Part shown: positions 47,567 through 54,248 of the stretch, in pieces
Numbering within the stretch: the stretch's first letter is position 1
Layout of the letters: every line of letters starts with the position of its first letter
Assembly: GCA_045106235.1 (NCBI GenBank)
Contig: JBGCEJ010000021.1
Location: 20,893 to 84,892 of the forward strand
Origin: Myxococcota bacterium
GTDB taxonomy: Bacteria; Myxococcota_A; UBA9160; UBA4427
DNA length: 64,000 nt
Reading direction: 5' to 3'
Position numbers and translations under genes: made by a program
The notes under the pieces: generated by a model
Seen by the model: the letters and a program-made list of their open reading frames with translations, nothing else
Databases searched by the model: none
What the model was told of the DNA's origin: nothing

Positions 47567-47728
47567 GCCGGGGCGCGTCTCTCGCTTTGGGGCTCTGCGG
47601 CTCTCGTCTCTGGGCTTTCGTTGTCGGTCTCTCGTTTGCGCTCAGCGCAACTGCGCATGAGCTGCGCAACCTTGTCACTCGCGCCTGTTTCTCATGACAT
47701 GCCCATGATTCGGTATGCTCTGGCCTTC

Positions 47729-48703
47729 ATGGAACGTCTCAGGTCCCTCTCTATCCACAGTCTGGCGATCGCAGCCTTTTCGATTCTCGCGGTTGCGAGC
47801 ATGAGCGGCTGCTCGGTTTTCTCGCAGGCGGAGGGGGCCGCGTCGGGCGAGCGGGCCGATTTGGGCAAGATGGGCGCGCGGCCAGCGGCGAGACTTCATT
47901 TCGCTCCGCGGGTCGGTCCCGAGGTCGAACTCTCTCTGGCGATGCTCGCGGAGCGCTGCGCGCCCGAGCGCATCGAAGTGGACGATCCCTATCATGAGAA
48001 GCGCATGCGTTATGCGGCGATTCCTCTGCGCTGCGTTCTCGATTTCGGATTCGCAAGCCAGGGTGGGGCGGAAGGCTTGCGCGAGGAGAGTCTTCTCTTA
48101 CGCGCGCTGGATGGCTACACCCGTCCGGTCTCCGGCCAGCAGCTTCTCGAGGAAGGGGCCTACCTTGCGTACGGAGAGCCCCTTCGGCTAGCGGCGATCC
48201 AGTCGGGCGCGGGAGAAACGTCGGCGTCCCCGCCCTCCGCATTCTCGCCGATCGATCGGCGGCAGGTTGATCCGGCACCTTTCTACATGGTCTGGGTCGG
48301 TGTTCAGCAAAACGATCCGCATGCTCACCCGTGGCCTTACCAGCTCTCCCGAATCGAAATTGCGCCTTTTGCCGCGGCCTTTCCAAGGACGGAGCCCAAA
48401 GGCCTCGCCGAGGAAGATGCGGGTTGGGCGGGCTACGCATTGTTTCAGAACGCCTGTGCTGCATGCCACTCCATCAACGGCGAAGGGGGCAAGATTGGGC
48501 CTGATCTGAATGTGCCCAGGAGCATCGTCGAGTACCGCCCCGTTCCGCAGATTCGCGCCTATATCCGCAATCCGCAGGCGACGCGCTATACGAGCATGCC
48601 CGCCCACCCGGAGCTTGCGGAATCGGATTTGGATGCGCTGATCGCGTATTTCCGGGCGATGAGCGTTCGCAAGGACGATCCCCGAAAGCGGAGTGGGTCA
48701 TGA
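47729..48703 (+). CDS. secreted (possibly lipid-anchored) mono-haem c-type cytochrome with a large N-terminal domain of unknown function
   Basis: ORF 47621..48703. Start at ATG 47729 (MERLRSLSIHSLAIAAFSILAVASMSGCS), with earlier ATGs possible. Single haem site 'CAACHSINGEGGKIGPDL' and a distal 'YTSMPA'. Confidence 0.75.
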   Translation: MERLRSLSIHSLAIAAFSILAVASMSGCSVFSQAEGAASGERADLGKMGARPAARLHFAPRVGPEVELSLAMLAERCAPERIEVDDPYHEKRMRYAAIPLRCVLDFGFASQGGAEGLREESLLLRALDGYTRPVSGQQLLEEGAYLAYGEPLRLAAIQSGAGETSASPPSAFSPIDRRQVDPAPFYMVWVGVQQNDPHAHPWPYQLSRIEIAPFAAAFPRTEPKGLAEEDAGWAGYALFQNACAACHSINGEGGKIGPDLNVPRSIVEYRPVPQIRAYIRNPQATRYTSMPAHPELAESDLDALIAYFRAMSVRKDDPRKRSGS

Positions 48704-49845
48704 GCCGCGGCGGCGGTCGCTCGCGTCGCCCTGAAAAGAGCGCGGGACTTCAGCAGGCGACGCTCCATTTGGGCCAGCGGACCTTGCAGACCGGATGGGG
48801 TGATTTCGAGGTTCATTTCTTTCGCGACCTCGCGGAGGACCGAACTGCGATGGCCATCGTTCGCGGCGACGTTGAGGGCGAGCTTCAAGGCGATGCACCG
48901 CTTTTGGTCCGGGTGCATTCGTCGTGTCTGACGAGCGAATGCTTATTGGGATGCGATTGCGACTGCGTGGAGCAGCTCGCCGGGGCGATGGCTCGAATCG
49001 CGGAAGCGGGGCGCGGCATCGTTTTCTATTTGATGCAGGAAGGCCGAGGGGCCGGACTTTCTGCAAAAGCGCGCGATCGCATGATCGTGCAGGCGAGCGA
49101 AAACCGGGTGACGACCTTCGAGGCGTACGCCGCCATGGGGTTGGCTTCGGACCTGCGGCGCTACGATGCGGTCGCTTCGATGGCGAAGCTGCTTGGGGTG
49201 CGCGGGCCGATTCAGCTGCTCACGAATAATCCCGAGAAGGCTCGGGCTGTAGAAGCCGCGCTCGTGGCTGAAAAAGTGGAAGTCTGCGGTACAGAACCGA
49301 TCTACGGGGCAGCATCGTCATTCAATCGCGATTACCTCCGGGCCAAGCAGGCGACGGGGCATATGCTGACCGGGCTGGAAGCCGATCGAGGCGTGCTTGC
49401 ACCCGAGCGCGTTCGCGTTTTCGAGCCCGTCGCGCTTCGGGGGGATCCCGGTCGCGTTGTGACCGCCTCGTATTTTTTGCCCGTGGTCTTTCCGGCTCCC
49501 GCTCCGGCTCTGACTCCGGCCCCGAACCCGCCCGATCCCGCAGAAGCGATTTGGTTTCGGATGAGTGTGATCTTCGAGCGGGCGACAGCGCGCGAATTGA
49601 TCTGGCTCTCTCGCGACGGCCTCGAAGATCCGGCCGCGCTCGTATTGCCCTCGGAGCCGGCTTCGGTTCTCCGGCTCGGTCTCTTTGACCGGATGCCAAG
49701 GAGCCCGCGACCACAGCGCGAGACGCTGGTGCGCGCGCTCATGCGGATTCGTGATGGGGAAGAGAGCGGCGTGCTCTTGCACTGCGATGAGAGGTGGGCG
49801 GCCGAGGGAAGCGACGGCCGCGCGGATGACGATGCCAGCGAATAA
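48700..49845 (+). CDS. GTP cyclohydrolase II (RibA)-like protein, Tyr105-less variant with a ~157-aa C-terminal extension
   Basis: 381 aa, with an ATGA overlap with the cytochrome c stop. 'WGDFEVHFF', the zinc site 'VRVHSSCLTSECLLGCDCDC', 'YLMQEGRGAGL' and 'LLTNNPEK' align without gaps to E. coli RibA. The position of RibA Tyr105 is Arg127-Met128 here. Confidence 0.8.
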   Translation: MSRGGGRSRRPEKSAGLQQATLHLGQRTLQTGWGDFEVHFFRDLAEDRTAMAIVRGDVEGELQGDAPLLVRVHSSCLTSECLLGCDCDCVEQLAGAMARIAEAGRGIVFYLMQEGRGAGLSAKARDRMIVQASENRVTTFEAYAAMGLASDLRRYDAVASMAKLLGVRGPIQLLTNNPEKARAVEAALVAEKVEVCGTEPIYGAASSFNRDYLRAKQATGHMLTGLEADRGVLAPERVRVFEPVALRGDPGRVVTASYFLPVVFPAPAPALTPAPNPPDPAEAIWFRMSVIFERATARELIWLSRDGLEDPAALVLPSEPASVLRLGLFDRMPRSPRPQRETLVRALMRIRDGEESGVLLHCDERWAAEGSDGRADDDASE

Positions 49846-51838
49846 CGATACGGCGGCCAGCGGTCGCGCGCTGATTGCATCTCGGGCGGCAGAAGCGGCT
49901 GCGGCGGTCGCCGCGGTGCCCGCGATTTTTCCGGAGTTGCTGGATCGGCCTGCGGCTTTGCCGCGTTCGCTGGTTGCGACGGGGATCGGGACTTCCGAAG
50001 GGCATGCGCGGCATTTGGCGGAAGTGGCTTCACGACTCACGGACCAACCTGCACGATTCGCATCGACGGGTTCCCTTCGTGCAGGTGCGCCCCAGGGTTC
50101 GGAAGAAGACTGGTTGGTCGTCTTCTCTCAAGGGCTCAGCGCGAACGCGCGGTATGCCCTCCAGGACGTGGAGTCCTGGGGTGGTGTGATCTTGGTGACG
50201 GGGCTTTCTTTGACCGCGACGGTGGAAGAGGGGCTTTCTGCGGAGAAACGGGCTTGGCTTGAGGATCTCGAAGCGCGCGGGGTCGTGTTTGTCGAGATGG
50301 GGTGCGGTTGTGAATACGGTGCCTTGATTCGTGTGATAGGTGCGCGCGTTGGCTACGCCATCGGCTGGAGTCTTCTGCGAACCCTCGCGGCCCGGCAGCT
50401 AAAAGAGGATGCGCTGGGTGCGCTTCTCGAAGATGAGGATTCGGGGATTCGGCTCGATGCACTTCAAGAAGAGGCGTCCGCGGGAGCGAGCCATGCGGTC
50501 TTCCAAAACGGAACGGGCTTGCCGGCGTCGAACGGGGATTTCGCGACCGATCTCGCCGCGTTCTTTGCACCCGATCGCAGCCTTGTCCTTGTGAGCGAAG
50601 GGGGAGAGACGAGCTTCGGGGAGCATCTTTCGCTGAAAATCTCTGAAGGGATGCTGCGTCCTCAGCCGCGTTGCGTGGATGTGCTCGAGTTCGCTCATGG
50701 TCCGGTGCAGAGTCTGGCGGGTCGGCCTGCTTCGTTCATTTATTTGCTTCCGGCCCCCGCGAAAGGCGTGTCGGAGCTCGAGTCCGAAGCGTGGCTGGCT
50801 CGGTTCCGCGCGACCCTTGACCCCAAATGGCATTCCGTCTGTGTGTTGCGCGCGAAGGCGCCGGCGCCTTTTTCCATTTTGGAGTTCGAGGCGATCTTTG
50901 ACGCCTGGATCGTCATGGTCTTGGAATGCACCGGGGGCGATATCGTGGCGTGGCCTGGCCAAGAGCGCGAAGTCTCGCTCTACGCCCAGGGACCATCGCT
51001 TGCGTCGGTTGCCGCAGAGTCGCCGCCGCAACCGCGCGCAGATCGGGCGGGCGAAGCGCCGTCCCGATGGGTGCTCGAAGAGGCGGTTTCGCCGGAGGTC
51101 GAGGCCTGGGTCGCGGCCGGTCGGCGGACAGCGCTGATTGCACTTGGGTCGGTGGAGCAGCATGGTCCGCATCTGCCGCTCGGGACGGATCGTTGGATTG
51201 CAGATGCGCTTGCGGAGGGTTTGGCTTCGCGACTTCCGGACGCGGTGGCGCTGCCGGCGATCCCGCTCGGTTGTGCGAGCGAGCATTTGGATTTTGCGGG
51301 GACGCTCCACGTTGAGCCCGAGACATTGGAAGCTGTGCTGATGGATCAGCTTCGAAGTCTGCGCGCCCATGGCTTCGAGCGCGCTTTTCTTTTTACGGCG
51401 CATGGCGGGAACCTCGACGCGCTTGAGGCGATGCGGACGCGTTTGGTTGCGGCGGCCGCGCCGCTCACGCTTCGGATTGAGACCGATTTACGCGTGGGCC
51501 TCATGCAATCTGAAGTGGTGGAGGCGGAGTCGCTGCCCGGTCGATCCGCGGGGCCGCATGCGGGCGAGTACGAGACCAGCTTGGTGGCTTGGCTTCGGCC
51601 CGGAAGTATTCGGCGCGACGGGCTGGTTCCTGGCCGACTCGTGGAGCCCGGAGAGGGGCAGGGGCTTTTCTATCCGAGCCTCCGACCAAACGCCGAGAGT
51701 GGTGTGCTCGGGGATCCATCGGCTGCGCGCGCTTCTCGGGGAGAGCGGTATCTGAGCGCCTGGCTCGACCTGCTTGAGGAGGCCTACCGCGCCGCCTTTT
51801 CGGTCGAGGCGCTCGCTGCGGAAAAGAATCGCCAGTAG
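49826..51838 (+). CDS. fusion protein: double SIS (phosphosugar-binding/isomerase) domain + creatininase-family metal hydrolase
   Basis: ORF 49685..51838. Start at ATG 49826 or 49832, inside the 3' end of the previous gene. SIS motifs: 'GIGTSEGHARHLA', 'WLVVFSQGLSANA', 'LVLVSEGGET' and 'EFAHGP'. Creatininase motifs: 'LGSVEQHGPHLPLGTD', 'FTAHGGN' and 'GPHAGEYETS'. Confidence 0.8.
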   Translation: MTMPANNDTAASGRALIASRAAEAAAAVAAVPAIFPELLDRPAALPRSLVATGIGTSEGHARHLAEVASRLTDQPARFASTGSLRAGAPQGSEEDWLVVFSQGLSANARYALQDVESWGGVILVTGLSLTATVEEGLSAEKRAWLEDLEARGVVFVEMGCGCEYGALIRVIGARVGYAIGWSLLRTLAARQLKEDALGALLEDEDSGIRLDALQEEASAGASHAVFQNGTGLPASNGDFATDLAAFFAPDRSLVLVSEGGETSFGEHLSLKISEGMLRPQPRCVDVLEFAHGPVQSLAGRPASFIYLLPAPAKGVSELESEAWLARFRATLDPKWHSVCVLRAKAPAPFSILEFEAIFDAWIVMVLECTGGDIVAWPGQEREVSLYAQGPSLASVAAESPPQPRADRAGEAPSRWVLEEAVSPEVEAWVAAGRRTALIALGSVEQHGPHLPLGTDRWIADALAEGLASRLPDAVALPAIPLGCASEHLDFAGTLHVEPETLEAVLMDQLRSLRAHGFERAFLFTAHGGNLDALEAMRTRLVAAAAPLTLRIETDLRVGLMQSEVVEAESLPGRSAGPHAGEYETSLVAWLRPGSIRRDGLVPGRLVEPGEGQGLFYPSLRPNAESGVLGDPSAARASRGERYLSAWLDLLEEAYRAAFSVEALAAEKNRQ

Positions 51839-52536
51839 GCGAAGGGGATCCAGAAGGCGTAGTAGAGCTGGTTGGGGACGATGCGAATGGCCCAGCCGAG
51901 GTCGAGGTCCGCGACGACGATGAAGACGTCGGCGATGAACCAGAGCGCGTAGTAGGCGGCGCTATAGCCGAAGATTGCGCGCAGGTACCGCGTCGTCTCC
52001 GCGGCCCACGCGCCCTTTGCGTTTTCGGGGAGCCAGACCCGAGAGAGGTAGACGCAGAGGCAGAGAAAGCCGAACTCGTAGATCATCCACATTACTTGGC
52101 CGTGGATGTCCGGGACGAGGAAGCGGAGACCGCCGTAGAGCACGCCCGTGGCGATGGGGACGATGAGCGTCATGGCGCCCGCCCAGCGGAGGAGCTCGCC
52201 CGTGCTCCGCTCGGGTTTCGCGACACCGATCGCGAGGAGCAGCACGCGGAGATCCCCGAGGAGCACGAAGAGAAAGGGGATCAGCGTCGCGAAGATCGTT
52301 CCGTCGATTGCGGCGGAGCGCTTGAGGGGGCCCGTGGCAACGGGGTCAAGCATGGTCTCGAAAGCGAAAACGAGCGTCAGCATCGCGACGAACCGCGCGG
52401 CGGGCGGGACTTCTGCGGTCTTCAGATCGGGCGGAGAGGCGAGCCGCCAAGCGAGGAAGGCGAGGGGGACGACGAGGAGGGCGTAGAGGCTCTGGAGGTC
52501 GCTGTAGTAGGCGGCGTTCCAGGTGAAATCGCTCAT
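51784..52536 (-). CDS. polytopic membrane protein of unknown function (~7 TM)
   Basis: ORF 51784..52635. Start at ATG 52536, forming an ATGA overlap with the upstream desaturase stop. It is hydrophobic throughout and I recognise no family. Its 3' end overlaps the convergent gene by 55 nt. Confidence 0.65.
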   Translation of the reverse strand: MSDFTWNAAYYSDLQSLYALLVVPLAFLAWRLASPPDLKTAEVPPAARFVAMLTLVFAFETMLDPVATGPLKRSAAIDGTIFATLIPFLFVLLGDLRVLLLAIGVAKPERSTGELLRWAGAMTLIVPIATGVLYGGLRFLVPDIHGQVMWMIYEFGFLCLCVYLSRVWLPENAKGAWAAETTRYLRAIFGYSAAYYALWFIADVFIVVADLDLGWAIRIVPNQLYYAFWIPFAYWRFFSAASASTEKAAR

Positions 52537-53297
52537 GAGCGTTTGGCTTTCTGTGCCGCAGCGAGGAGATGCTCGATGCGCGGGAAGAGTCGGGCGCGAT
52601 CGAGGAGGGGATTGAGCCAGCCCGAAGTCACGCAATAGGCGCGGTCATGGCCGCGGCGATGATGGACGGCGTGGCCGCGGGGCGTCAGGATCAAGCCCCA
52701 AGCGTGGAGGCGTTTCGCAAGCGGCGGCGGGCTCGGGGTATGGGCCCAGCGATGGAATTGGTTCGTCGCGACGAGCGCAAGGCTAAGGCTGAAGAGATGG
52801 GCGATCAGGAAGAACGCCGCGAAGGTTGTCGGCTCGGGAATCAAGAAGATCAGCCCCACGAGCGGAATTGTGATGAGGGCGTTATTCCCCGAGACCTCGA
52901 AAAAATCGTGCCGCGTGATGCCCAGCGCATCCACGTGATGCTCCCGAAAAGGCGCGATCAGCATGGGCCCGAGGAGCGGCGTCTCCGGATCGAAGAAACG
53001 GTCCGCGATCCAGTGGACCATGCCCGCGATCAAGTCGGCGAGGAGGTAGCCCGTGATGCCGCCAAGTCCCATGGCGAGGGCGACGCCGAGGCGAAGGTGC
53101 GGGCCGAAGGTCTCGACGAGCAGTCGTCCCGCTCCGGCGCCCGCGCCCGATTCGGCGAGTTCGGGCCCGAGAAAGAATGCGGAGAGGAAGAACGGAGCGA
53201 AGCGTGTGGCAGCGATGATCCAGACAAGCGAAAAGAGGCCGACCGAGATTCGGTCGACCCACGCTTTTTGCCGGGTGCTCATCGCGAGTGTGCTCAC
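52533..53297 (-). CDS. CarF / TMEM189 (PEDS1)-type membrane fatty-acid desaturase (Kua/Lipid_desat domain)
   Basis: 254 aa. The His clusters 'VHWIADRF', 'FREHHVD', 'FHRWAHT' and 'GHAVHHRRGHDRAYC' match the plasmanylethanolamine-desaturase family pattern (human 'HKWSHT'-type motifs, as recalled). Confidence 0.8.
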   Translation of the reverse strand: MSTLAMSTRQKAWVDRISVGLFSLVWIIAATRFAPFFLSAFFLGPELAESGAGAGAGRLLVETFGPHLRLGVALAMGLGGITGYLLADLIAGMVHWIADRFFDPETPLLGPMLIAPFREHHVDALGITRHDFFEVSGNNALITIPLVGLIFLIPEPTTFAAFFLIAHLFSLSLALVATNQFHRWAHTPSPPPLAKRLHAWGLILTPRGHAVHHRRGHDRAYCVTSGWLNPLLDRARLFPRIEHLLAAAQKAKRS

Positions 53298-53450: not shown

Positions 53451-54107
53451 CTAGTTATCCCAGCGCTCGCCGCCCCGGTTGCGGCGATCGTTCCGGTCAC
53501 GGCTCTCTCGAGCGCGATCGCTGAGCCAGTCCTTGTGATCTCCTCGACGATTGATGCGGTCGCCTCTGCGATCCTGGCGCTGGTTATTGTTCTTGGCGAA
53601 CCGCTTCCCACCCCGGTGACCATGTCGCGCATGGTGCTTCAGGTTGTGCCGCTTCTGATGCCGCCGGTTGACCCGGTTGTCATGATGGCCGCAATTCCGC
53701 GAATGCCGATGCTGTCGCAGATTCTGGCGCGCCTGTCGGAGGCGCCGGTCGCCCTTGCGATCGAGGCGCCGCTCGATGCGGTCCCCCGTGCGATCGAGGG
53801 CATGAGCCAGGCGCCGGTCCCCGTTGGCGGAGGCCAGGATGGCGAGGCCATCAAGATGCAGATCGATGATTGCGCCCTGCTGGTCGAGCCGACGGTTGTC
53901 TCGGCGCGCCTTTCGAACCTGCTGTCGTTGGTTGCCGCGATCGACGTGATGTCGGGCGTGGTGGCCATTGCGGACATTATGGTCGTGGTTATGACCGCGA
54001 TGTCCATGGCGGTCTCCTGCCTGGGCACTTCCGGCGAAGACAAGCCCGCCGGCGAGCAAGGCGCCGATCGTCCAATTCATCCAATGATTGTTTTTAGTTG
54101 CCATCAT
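53451..54107 (-). CDS. secreted His/Arg/Asp/Asn-rich low-complexity protein
   Basis: ORF 53451..54146. Start at ATGATG 54107 after GGAGGAAGAGG. Signal peptide 'WTIGALLAGGLVFAGSAQA'. The mature part is dominated by H, R, D and N (e.g. GDRHGHRGHNHDHNVRNGHHARHH), with a short ordered-looking core (IIDLHLDGLAILASANG). Confidence 0.75.
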   Translation of the reverse strand: MMATKNNHWMNWTIGALLAGGLVFAGSAQAGDRHGHRGHNHDHNVRNGHHARHHVDRGNQRQQVRKARRDNRRLDQQGAIIDLHLDGLAILASANGDRRLAHALDRTGDRIERRLDRKGDRRLRQARQNLRQHRHSRNCGHHDNRVNRRHQKRHNLKHHARHGHRGGKRFAKNNNQRQDRRGDRINRRGDHKDWLSDRARESRDRNDRRNRGGERWDN

Positions 54108-54248
54108 TTCCTCTTCCTCCGTGGGCTCATTTACTGAGCGGTTCACAGGGAGTGAGACGAAACGAGGCCCTCCGAGTTCCTTCCCTCGGGGATTTTAGGG
54201 CCTTTGGGCCGGCCCTTTCAGTCACGCAACTTTTTGGGAGATGACCTT

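What the first reader, a model, noticed from the sequence alone, without database searches (positions are those of the whole stretch)
48700..49845. RibA-like protein carries an unexplained ~157-aa C-terminal extension
E. coli RibA is 196 aa and ends just after '..MGHLLNK'. Here the equivalent 'ATGHMLTG' falls at about residue 224 of 381. The remaining ~157 aa (VLAPERVRVFEPVALRGDPGRVVTASYFLPV...WFRMSVIFERATARELIWLSRDG...LVRALMRIRDGEESGVLLHCDERW...) match no domain I recognise. They contain a Pro/Ala linker (PAPAPALTPAPNPPDP). This could be a degenerate second beta-rich domain, or a docking or regulatory module for the downstream fusion protein.
Basis: seen in the sequence. Interest (0 to 1): 0.55.

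Follow-up and report, generated by a model that had tools for sequence, protein, structure and literature searches.

The report
Vestigial second GTP cyclohydrolase II domain
The unexplained 157-residue tail on this RibA-like enzyme is real and conserved, and it is a truncated, catalytically dead copy of the enzyme's own fold, left over from an internal duplication that survives almost whole in related bacteria.

Summary
ORF 48700-49845 encodes 381 aa. A GTP cyclohydrolase II (GCH II) domain ends near residue 223 and is followed by about 157 aa with no Pfam or NCBIfam match. The tail is coding and is conserved in more than 120 homologues.

The tail is not a new fold. It is a degenerate partial duplicate of GCH II. 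Its predicted secondary structure repeats that of the first half of GCH II. E. coli GCH II is the best PDB fold match for a tail-only model. Relatives in Verrucomicrobiota and Bdellovibrionota carry a near-complete second GCH II copy at this position, without the zinc cysteines. That copy links the tail to the catalytic domain (hhalign 96.8% and 98.9%).

The Pro/Ala stretch is a variable loop inside this domain, not an interdomain linker.

The tail lacks the zinc ligands and the whole C-terminal half, so it cannot catalyse. It most likely acts as a structural pseudo-subunit or docking platform. Three Rosetta-stone fusions place the tail or second copy directly before the domain of the downstream protein. 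That function is inferred, not shown.

The catalytic domain lacks the ring-opening Tyr. It sits in a conserved, translationally coupled module with a cytochrome c protein and a SIS-like/creatininase fusion.

Verdict: a new variant of a known kind (pseudo-GCH II domains, as in RibBX), of moderate interest.

The parts
48700..49845 (+). Whole gene: Tyr-less GCH II plus vestigial second GCH II half-domain (381 aa plus stop).
   Evidence: It is identical to NCBI MAG Myxococcota protein AB8G23_14890 (P0001).
48757..49368 (+). Catalytic GCH II domain (residues 20-223).
   Evidence: Pfam PF00925 at 2.4e-39. PDB 2bz0 at 8.8e-43. Foldseek TM 0.92 to 2bz0.
48925..48966 (+). Zinc-binding cysteine triad C76, C87 and C89 in 'HSSCLTSECLLGCDCDC'. 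These residues are invariant in the family.
   Evidence: Invariant columns in A1 and A2. They align with the three cysteines of the E. coli motif 'HSECLTGDALFSLRCDC'. Their identity as the Zn ligands Cys54/65/67 is from memory of Ren et al. 2005.
49078..49083 (+). R127-M128 ('KARDRM'), the position of E. coli catalytic Tyr105. There is no Tyr here, and both residues are invariant.
   Evidence: The HMMER alignment to 2bz0 and 4i14 puts Tyr opposite R127. Shifting the gap by one residue would put it opposite M128.
49369..49443 (+). Ordered extended linker (residues 224-248) with conserved P234, P235, V238 and P243.
   Evidence: pLDDT 83-97 in the full-length model.
49444..49785 (+). Pseudo-GCH II half-domain (residues 249-362). 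It has the equivalents of strands b1-b5 and two helices, with the Zn site and C-terminal half lost.
   Evidence: Secondary-structure order mirrors residues 21-111. Tail-only model has pLDDT 83.6. Best PDB fold match is 2bz0, probability 0.90. hhalign to the full second copies of relatives gives 96.8%, E=2.7e-10.
49486..49548 (+). Pro/Ala-rich variable loop (residues 263-283) between b1' and b2' of the pseudo-domain.
   Evidence: 12% mean identity and length 6-32 in homologues. Lowest pLDDT inside the domain, 61-78.
49612..49665 (+). Second variable loop (residues 305-322) between b3' and b4'.
   Evidence: 18% identity and length 10-54 in homologues.
49786..49842 (+). Acidic C-terminal end (residues 363-381), disordered from about residue 370. 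It overlaps the start of the next gene.
   Evidence: pLDDT blocks 80, 49 and 37; segment 373-381 is below 50. Variable in alignment A1.
49832..51838 (+). Downstream partner gene (668 aa). It has an uncharacterised SIS-like 'X' domain (49832-51079) fused to a creatininase-family amidohydrolase (51080-51835). Its ATG overlaps the GCH II stop by 14 nt.
   Evidence: Sequence. Pfam PF02633 at 2.9e-56. X profile hits SIS protein 3fxa at E=9e-4. Synteny. Fusions.
47621..48703 (+). Upstream partner gene: protein with a C-terminal cytochrome c domain. Its stop overlaps the GCH II start (ATGA). The true start codon is uncertain.
   Evidence: Pfam PF00034 and PF13442. Sequence. Conserved upstream in short-tail loci.

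Best explanation
The C-terminal ~157 aa are the remnant of a second GTP cyclohydrolase II domain created by an internal tandem duplication.

In one branch of the family (Verrucomicrobiota/Opitutae, Bdellovibrionota) the second copy is still nearly full length. It has lost the three zinc-binding cysteines, so it is a pseudo-enzyme. In the branch that includes this window (Myxococcota, Binatia, Thermodesulfobacteriota) the copy has been cut back to the first half of the fold: strands b1-b5 and two helices, residues about 249-362. It has diverged beyond what Pfam detects. Two variable loops are inserted in it, one of which is the Pro/Ala stretch.

The remnant has no zinc site and none of the C-terminal half of the fold, so it cannot catalyse.

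The rest is inferred. The remnant packs rigidly on the active N-terminal domain. It probably serves as a built-in pseudo-subunit, standing in for the partner of the ancestral GCH II homodimer. It may also be the surface that docks the obligate downstream SIS-like partner protein.

The active domain itself keeps the zinc site but lacks the ring-opening Tyr. By analogy with Streptomyces coelicolor SCO6655, it may release the formylated pyrimidine intermediate. The adjacent creatininase-family domain could then deformylate that intermediate.

Confidence is about 0.9 for the origin and identity of the tail and about 0.35 for the pseudo-subunit/docking role.
For: Shown:
- The tail is coding and conserved. 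Structured elements are 54-71% identical to the query and loops 12-18%.
- The full-length AF2 model has pLDDT 89 and pTM 0.89. The tail elements E249-262, E284-293, E298-304, E323-326, H328-331, H338-351 and E357-362 repeat the order of E21-31, E34-43, E48-55, E68-74, H77-80, H89-103 and E106-111.
- For a tail-only model (pLDDT 83.6), the two best hits among 350,542 PDB chains are E. coli GCH II 2bz0_A/B. Probability is 0.90 over 118 columns, and the next hit has probability 0.14.
- In 22 loci the family's N-domain HMM hits the same protein a second time, at i-E 4e-7 to 1e-18 (all but one at or below 2e-12), over HMM positions 22-187. The tail HMM hits the same residues at about 1e-4 to 1e-17.
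- hhalign: tail vs second copies 96.8%, E=2.7e-10. Second copies vs catalytic domain 98.9%, E=1.5e-17. Tail vs catalytic domain directly is only E=0.004-0.007, but in the same register.
- Intermediates exist. In P0138 the tail HMM (2e-20) overlaps N-HMM[28-190] (5e-17). In P0136 the N-HMM hits a short tail at 7e-8.
- In the second copies the first Zn cysteine is replaced by Glu and the 'CDC' pair by 'NRD'. The second-copy motif 'SLFNRFP' matches the tail motif 'SLLDRLP'.
- A tail profile finds only 78 proteins among 1.84 billion cluster representatives. Wherever enough N-terminal sequence is present, the tail directly follows a GCH II domain.

Bearing on the docking idea:
- Stop and start codons overlap with both neighbouring genes.
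- Synteny holds in 49 of 62 short-tail loci and 17 of 22 full-copy loci. The exceptions include contig ends.
- Natural fusions: P0153 is GCH II + tail + X + creatininase. P0192 and P0193 are GCH II + second copy + X.
Against: - Direct tail-to-catalytic-domain similarity is weak: hhalign probability 6-8%, Foldseek E=0.13 and TM 0.39. hmmalign could not place the window's tail on the N-domain HMM. The homology case therefore rests on transitivity through intermediates plus fold and register agreement.
- The window's own tail scores only 12.8 bits against the second-copy HMM (i-E 0.031).
- No tool gave coordinates, so the claimed packing and any resemblance to the RibA dimer interface are untested.
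- Invariant polar residues (Y258, W285, D330, R331; nearly invariant R287, E299, R340) could mark a ligand site rather than a protein interface.
- The difference in partners between short-tail and full-copy loci is confounded with phylogeny.
- The product of the active domain is unknown. The SCO6655 analogy is from memory of Spoonamore et al. 2006, which was not retrievable.
Confidence: 0.8

Rival explanations
1. The tail is an allosteric or ligand-sensing pseudo-enzyme domain. It would bind a nucleotide or pathway metabolite and tune the active domain, as reported for the X domain of RibBX. This is not exclusive with the best explanation.
For: The full second copies keep several motifs shared with the catalytic domain (DGRGAG, SSDEAY, YDSRDY, MNxP) while losing only the zinc site. 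The tail has invariant or nearly invariant polar residues Y258, W285, R287, E299, D330, R331 and R340. There is a precedent: the S. oneidensis RibBX X domain regulates RibB by an unknown mechanism (PMC10012899).
Against: The short tail lacks the entire C-terminal half of the fold and the GRGAG loop. A GTP-like site as in GCH II therefore cannot exist in this window's protein. No ligand evidence is available.
Confidence: 0.2
2. The tail is primarily a dedicated docking module for the downstream SIS-like/creatininase protein, giving substrate channelling of a labile ribosylaminopyrimidine phosphate. Its GCH II ancestry would be incidental.
For: Translational coupling. X lies downstream in almost every locus of both tail forms. 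In fusions X follows the tail or second copy directly. Tail form covaries with partner architecture: short tail with X-creatininase plus cytochrome c, full copy with stand-alone X.
Against: No interaction data or complex model exists. Covariation is confounded by phylogeny. Gene adjacency and fusion show a functional link, not which surface docks.
Confidence: 0.3
3. The tail is an unrelated, lineage-specific domain that happens to share a b-b-b-b-a-a-b topology with GCH II (convergence).
For: Direct profile-profile probability is only 6-8%. Foldseek E is 0.13. There is no Pfam hit.
Against: Significant transitive links run through full second copies and intermediates. The register is the same in every comparison. 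Motifs are shared (WF..V..D; SL[LF][DN]R[LF]P). GCH II is the top fold hit out of 350,542 chains.
Confidence: 0.04
4. The extension is an artefact: read-through, a frameshift, or a fusion of two genes by assembly error.
For: None was found beyond the absence of a family match.
Against: The codon-position GC signature is in frame, and the other frames contain stops. More than 120 homologues from independent assemblies have the same architecture. There are 142 genome loci, including cultured Pyxidicoccus fallax, Archangium minus and Nibricoccus. The AF2 model is high-confidence.
Confidence: 0.01

Closest known systems
RibBX (DHBP synthase fused to a degenerate GCH II-like 'X' domain; Shewanella, Acinetobacter PDB 6mnz, Aeromonas, Bradyrhizobium)
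   Same: A GCH II-derived domain that has lost the zinc-binding and ring-opening residues is kept as a non-catalytic appendage of a riboflavin-type enzyme. In S. oneidensis it modulates the attached enzyme (PMC10012899). 6mnz appears among the fold hits of the full model.
   Different: Here the pseudo-domain is attached to an active GCH II domain, not to RibB. It lies C-terminal, arises from self-duplication, and in this window is truncated to half a domain. The gene context is not a riboflavin operon.
Canonical GTP cyclohydrolase II, RibA (E. coli, PDB 2bz0; PF00925)
   Same: The N-terminal domain has the fold (TM 0.92), the zinc cysteine triad and most conserved motifs. The tail has the topology of the first half of the fold.
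   Different: Tyr105 is replaced by R127/M128. NCBIfam RibA models score below their cutoffs (141 vs 148; 123 vs 206). RibA is a single-domain homodimer of 196 aa without a tail.
Streptomyces coelicolor SCO6655 (GCH II paralogue with Met in place of the catalytic Tyr, which releases the formylamino-pyrimidine FAPy; Spoonamore et al. 2006, recalled from memory; a review, PMC13151069, notes only that the third paralogue has a new function)
   Same: A GCH II with an intact zinc site but no Tyr at the switch position. An invariant Met lies at or next to that position.
   Different: The product was not tested here. As far as I recall, SCO6655 has no C-terminal pseudo-domain. Whether Met128 or Arg127 is the structural equivalent of the switch residue is ambiguous by one residue.
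ArfB / BrbF: creatininase-family formamidases that deformylate AFRPP to DARoPP (archaea; Sinorhizobium and Brucella, PMC9478397)
   Same: The downstream partner carries a creatininase-family domain next to a Tyr-less GCH II. This suggests a two-step route from GTP through the formyl intermediate to the diaminopyrimidine.
   Different: The NCBIfam ArfB match is only 6e-5 (22.9 bits vs cutoff 180), and MftE is the best-scoring model, also below cutoff. The domain is fused to a SIS-like domain. Full-second-copy relatives lack it altogether. Activity is untested.
UTP cyclohydrolase (URC1-type GCH II homologues, PDB 7eev and 7ej3)
   Same: A GCH II-fold enzyme of about 420 aa with extra domains, recruited outside riboflavin synthesis.
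   Different: Similarity is distant (E about 4e-3 by sequence). The extra parts are not a self-duplicate.

Membership tests
GTP cyclohydrolase II (PF00925 / RibA): N-terminal domain | Significant match to the family model and fold. | tested here: met
   PF00925 at 135 bits vs cutoff 23.3. 2bz0 at E=8.8e-43. Foldseek TM 0.92.
GTP cyclohydrolase II (PF00925 / RibA): N-terminal domain | Three zinc-binding cysteines. | tested here: met
   C76, C87 and C89 are invariant and align with the three cysteines of the E. coli RibA motif. Their role as Zn ligands (Cys54/65/67) is from memory of Ren et al. 2005.
GTP cyclohydrolase II (PF00925 / RibA): N-terminal domain | Catalytic Tyr (E. coli Tyr105), needed for ring opening and formate release. 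| tested here: not met
   The column holds the invariant R127/M128. There is no Tyr in 'KARDRMIVQ'.
GTP cyclohydrolase II (PF00925 / RibA): N-terminal domain | Equivalog-level score for RibA, implying the riboflavin-pathway function. | tested here: not met
   NF001591 scores 141.1 vs 148. TIGR00505 scores 123.3 vs 205.85. No rib genes are adjacent.
GCH II fold: C-terminal tail (residues 249-362) | Homology to GCH II. | tested here: met
   The link is transitive. Tail to full second copy: 96.8%, E=2.7e-10. Second copy to catalytic domain: 98.9%, E=1.5e-17. Intermediates P0138 and P0136. Top fold hit 2bz0. The direct comparison alone is weak.
GCH II fold: C-terminal tail (residues 249-362) | Zinc site and complete alpha/beta domain, as required for activity. 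| tested here: not met
   No cysteines at the equivalent positions. The tail ends after the b5 equivalent, and no part matches HMM positions beyond about 115.
FAPy-forming GCH II (SCO6655 type) | Tyr replaced at the switch position, with the zinc site intact. | tested here: met
   Equivalence to Met120 of SCO6655 was not checked against that sequence.
FAPy-forming GCH II (SCO6655 type) | Product is 2-amino-5-formylamino-6-ribosylamino-4(3H)-pyrimidinone 5'-phosphate. | not testable with these tools
   Needs an enzyme assay.
RibBX-type pseudo-GCH II domain | GCH II-like domain lacking zinc and ring-opening residues, fused to DHBP synthase. | tested here: not met
   The loss of catalytic residues is shared. 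The fusion partner, however, is GCH II itself, and there is no RibB domain.
ArfB/BrbF formamidase (downstream creatininase domain) | Family-level match to the AFRPP deformylase. | tested here: inconclusive
   PF02633 hit is strong at 191 bits. NCBIfam ArfB scores only 22.9 vs 180, and MftE 125 vs 172. No BrbF model was available.

The most novel reading that the evidence does not exclude
The cytochrome c protein, the Tyr-less GCH II with its pseudo-GCH II tail, and the SIS-like/creatininase fusion may together form an undescribed GTP-consuming pathway. It is found in Myxococcota and Binatia, with a simpler GCH II-pseudoGCH II plus SIS-like pair in Verrucomicrobiota and Bdellovibrionota.

In this reading the pseudo-domain docks the SIS-like partner. 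The labile ribosylamino-pyrimidine phosphate would then be handed on for deformylation and Amadori-type isomerisation or deglycation. The end point could be a new pterin- or flavin-like cofactor, or guanine-nucleotide catabolism. A purine nucleoside permease lies next to the module in one full-copy locus.
Probability: 0.25. Interest if true: 0.7.

Novelty: new variant of a known kind. Interest (0 to 1): 0.45.

Why it matters
It resolves an unannotated 150-residue region present in a whole clade of proteins currently labelled 'GTP cyclohydrolase II' or 'hypothetical'. That clade covers 142 loci among the genomes of about 186,000 species.

The family preserves stages of domain decay: an active enzyme, a tandem copy with a dead zinc site, and a truncated half-domain.

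It also warns against annotating these genes as riboflavin RibA. The catalytic Tyr is missing, the RibA equivalog scores fail, and the conserved partners point to a different GTP-derived pathway that has not been described. Those partners are an uncharacterised SIS-like domain, a creatininase-family amidohydrolase and a cytochrome c protein.

Cultured carriers (Archangium minus, Pyxidicoccus fallax, Nibricoccus, Ereboglobus) make the pathway experimentally accessible.

Tried and rejected
- Read-through or frameshift artefact: rejected on codon-position GC and conservation.
- Pro/Ala stretch as an interdomain linker: rejected. It is an internal variable loop.
- Direct sequence detection of the tail gave nothing. 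Pfam returned no hit at E<=10. A PDB profile search gave only chance hits to an immunoreceptor at E about 2. hmmalign could not place the tail on the N-domain HMM.
- Direct hhalign of tail against catalytic domain was only suggestive (E=0.004-0.007). The case needed the intermediates.
- The search for related loci with the tail-only alignment failed because no stretch was conserved enough. The full-length alignment was used instead.
- My first creatininase query was out of frame, so the 'creat' rows are void. It was corrected.
- Spoonamore et al. 2006 (PMC3227873) was not held, so the Met-switch analogy rests on memory.
- Literature searches for SCO6655, RibBX and RibA dimer details gave no description of this architecture.
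- The X domain gave no Pfam or NCBIfam family, even using stand-alone orthologues. Only a weak SIS match appeared with a profile.
- No model coordinates were accessible, so the tail could not be superposed on the RibA dimer partner.
Full report
**Observation**

The ORF at 48700-49845 (+) encodes 381 aa. Pfam GTP_cyclohydro2 covers residues 26-186. NCBIfam RibA-type models cover 26-223, but all score below their curated cutoffs. A profile of the family aligns with E. coli RibA (PDB 2bz0) up to residue 195 of 196, which corresponds to '...ATGHMLT' near residue 223. This stretch has no Pfam hit even at E<=10.

The codon-position GC pattern in the tail (0.75/0.53/0.70) matches the rest of the gene and its neighbours, and the other two frames contain 4-5 stops. 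The tail is also conserved. A search of 5.8 billion proteins gave 473 hits. The 120 listed are 334-442 aa long and cover 76-100% of the query at 46-71% identity. The exact protein is a hypothetical protein from a Myxococcota MAG.

**Anatomy of the tail**

Alignments show invariant or nearly invariant tail residues in blocks:
- P234 P235 .. V238 .. P243
- T255 A256 . Y258 F259 L260 P261
- W285 F286 R287 .. V290 ... E299 ... L303
- L328 . D330 R331 L332 P333
- G339 R340 .. L343 ... L347
- G356 . V358 ... D363

Two regions between these blocks vary in sequence and length. The Pro/Ala stretch (263-283) has 12% identity and spans 6-32 residues in homologues. Residues 305-322 have 18% identity and span 10-54 residues. 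The structured blocks are 54-71% identical. The Pro/Ala segment is therefore a loop inside a domain, not an interdomain linker.

**The fold**

AlphaFold2 with the 120-sequence alignment gives a confident model (pLDDT 89.1, pTM 0.89). The tail elements are E249-262, E284-293, E298-304, E323-326, H328-331, H338-351 and E357-362. They repeat the order of the first half of the catalytic domain: E21-31, E34-43, E48-55, E68-74, H77-80, H89-103 and E106-111.

A tail-only model (pLDDT 83.6) was searched with Foldseek against 350,542 PDB chains. The two best hits are both E. coli GTP cyclohydrolase II (2bz0_A/B), with probability 0.90 and 0.84, 118 columns, 18% identity and TM 0.39. The next hit has probability 0.14. 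The E-value (0.13) is weak on its own.

**Sequence proof through intermediates**

A scan of one genome per species (185,579 species) with the family motifs found 142 loci, of which 80 were fetched. They come from:
- Myxococcota, including cultured Pyxidicoccus fallax and Archangium minus
- Binatia
- Thermodesulfobacteriota
- Verrucomicrobiota (Nibricoccus, Ereboglobus, Limisphaerales)
- Bdellovibrionota

I built HMMs of the family's catalytic domain and of the tail and searched all ORFs of these loci. In 22 loci, all labelled Verrucomicrobiota or Bdellovibrionota, the catalytic-domain HMM hits the same protein twice. The second hit has an independent E-value of 4e-7 to 1e-18 (all but one at or below 2e-12) and covers HMM positions 22-187. 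The tail HMM hits the same residues at about 1e-4 to 1e-17. Those proteins are tandem GCH II-GCH II.

Their second copy keeps motifs such as WFxVHVYYD, VVRxHSESLFNRFP, DGRGAGFGA, SSDEAY, YDSRDY and IQMVMNxP. It has lost the zinc ligands: the first cysteine is Glu, and 'CDC' has become 'NRD'.

Profile-profile comparison gives the following:
- Tail vs second copies: probability 96.8%, E=2.7e-10.
- Second copies vs catalytic domain: probability 98.9%, E=1.5e-17.
- Tail vs catalytic domain directly: E=0.004-0.007, in the same register.

The second-copy HMM hits all 27 sampled short tails at 8-31 bits; the window's tail scores 12.8 bits. In a search of all ORFs of the window it hits this protein twice: the catalytic domain at 1e-16 and residues about 283-370 at 0.031.

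An exhaustive search of 1.84 billion cluster representatives with the tail profile found only 78 proteins. Wherever enough N-terminus is present, the tail directly follows a GCH II domain. Intermediates exist. In P0138 (481 aa), a tail hit at 2e-20 overlaps a catalytic-domain hit at 5e-17 over HMM positions 28-190. In P0136, the catalytic-domain HMM hits a short tail at 7e-8.

I conclude that the tail is the truncated, degenerate remnant of a duplicated GCH II domain, equivalent to strands b1-b5.

**What it can and cannot do**

The tail has none of the three zinc cysteines. It ends after the b5 equivalent, so the whole C-terminal half of the fold is missing. It cannot be a second active site.

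The high pTM and the well-ordered linker (pLDDT 83-97) suggest that it is packed rigidly against the catalytic domain. This is an inference, because no coordinates were available. GCH II is a dimer (PMC13151069). A fused dead copy is therefore a plausible built-in pseudo-subunit.

A precedent for retained dead GCH II domains is RibBX. Its X domain lacks the zinc and ring-opening residues, yet it modulates the attached RibB domain (PMC10012899; PDB 6mnz appears).

**Context and the docking idea**

The gene is translationally coupled on both sides. The upstream cytochrome c-domain gene ends in ATGA at 48700-48703. The downstream gene starts at ATG 49832, 14 nt before the stop.

The downstream protein is an uncharacterised ~416-aa 'X' domain fused to a creatininase-family domain (PF02633, 2.9e-56).

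Among 84 loci analysed, which include the window and a few near-duplicates:
- 62 have the short tail. Of these, 49 show the full set: cytochrome c gene upstream, X-creatininase downstream and a convergent membrane protein. The exceptions include contig ends.
- 22 have the full second copy. Of these, 17 have a stand-alone X gene downstream. None has the creatininase, cytochrome c or membrane gene.

Natural fusions exist. P0153 (930 aa) is GCH II + tail + X + creatininase. P0192 and P0193 are GCH II + second copy + X. X is therefore the universal partner, and in fusions it follows the tail or second copy directly. This is consistent with a docking role but does not prove it.

X has no Pfam or NCBIfam family. 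A 12-sequence profile of X does hit a SIS-domain protein (3fxa, E=9e-4), followed weakly by a phosphosugar isomerase and GlmS.

**The active domain**

The zinc triad C76/C87/C89 and most GCH II motifs are invariant. E. coli Tyr105 aligns with the invariant R127-M128.

From memory of Spoonamore et al. 2006 (not retrievable), replacing this Tyr with Met in S. coelicolor SCO6655 makes the enzyme release the formylated intermediate. Creatininase-family enzymes (ArfB, BrbF) deformylate exactly that compound (PMC9478397). A two-step route from GTP through the formyl-pyrimidine to the diaminopyrimidine, with a phosphosugar-binding SIS-like partner, is therefore a reasonable hypothesis. It is untested. 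The creatininase domain matches ArfB only weakly.

**Verdict**

The docking or regulatory function remains an inference.

This is a new variant of a known kind (pseudo-GCH II domains). It is of moderate interest in itself. Interest would be higher if the conserved three-gene module proves to be a new GTP-derived pathway.

Noticed in passing
window 49832-51079 (+); L070:7436-8509; alignment A5: The ~416-aa N-terminal 'X' domain of the downstream protein has no Pfam or NCBIfam family. It is the universal neighbour of this GCH II clade. A 12-sequence profile hits a SIS-domain protein (3fxa, E=9e-4), then a phosphosugar isomerase and GlmS weakly. Invariant motifs TGxGxSxxHA, VFSQGxxxNA, KxxEG, AHGxxQ and DxxxWPG resemble, from memory, a divergent GlmS/FrlB-type double SIS domain.
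   Followed up: partly
P0153 (930 aa), P0192 (795 aa), P0193 (783 aa): These are natural Rosetta-stone fusions. P0153 has GCH II + tail + X + creatininase in one chain. P0192 and P0193 have GCH II + second copy + X.
   Followed up: partly
L070 2131-5798 (-): In a Limisphaerales locus with a full second copy, a purine nucleoside permease (PF06516) and a TonB-dependent receptor lie divergently upstream of the tandem GCH II gene. This hints at purine salvage or catabolism rather than riboflavin synthesis.
   Followed up: no
window 47621-48703 (+): The upstream gene encodes a C-terminal cytochrome c domain preceded by about 270 aa with no family match. Its stop overlaps the GCH II start (ATGA). 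It is conserved upstream in nearly all short-tail loci but absent from full-copy loci.
   Followed up: partly
window 51784-52635 (-) and 52533-53297 (-): A 283-aa protein with no family match, apparently membrane-embedded from its sequence, and a CarF-like lipid desaturase (PF10520; NCBIfam plasmanylethanolamine desaturase, below cutoff) lie convergent to the module. The 283-aa gene is syntenic in most short-tail loci, and the desaturase is also present in many of them. FabH-like and FabF-like ketosynthases flank the region.
   Followed up: partly
window 53451-54146 (-): This 231-aa ORF is extremely rich in His, Arg and Asp (HRGHNHDHN..., repeated RRxDR motifs) and has a signal-like N-terminus. 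It could be a metal-binding periplasmic protein, or it may not be a real gene.
   Followed up: no
window residues 234, 332, 339, 356 of the 381-aa protein (nt 49399-49401, 49693-49695, 49714-49716, 49765-49767): The window's own tail departs from the family consensus at four positions that are 92-98% conserved: A for P234, M for L332, Q for G339 and S for G356. This suggests a somewhat relaxed or divergent member.
   Followed up: no
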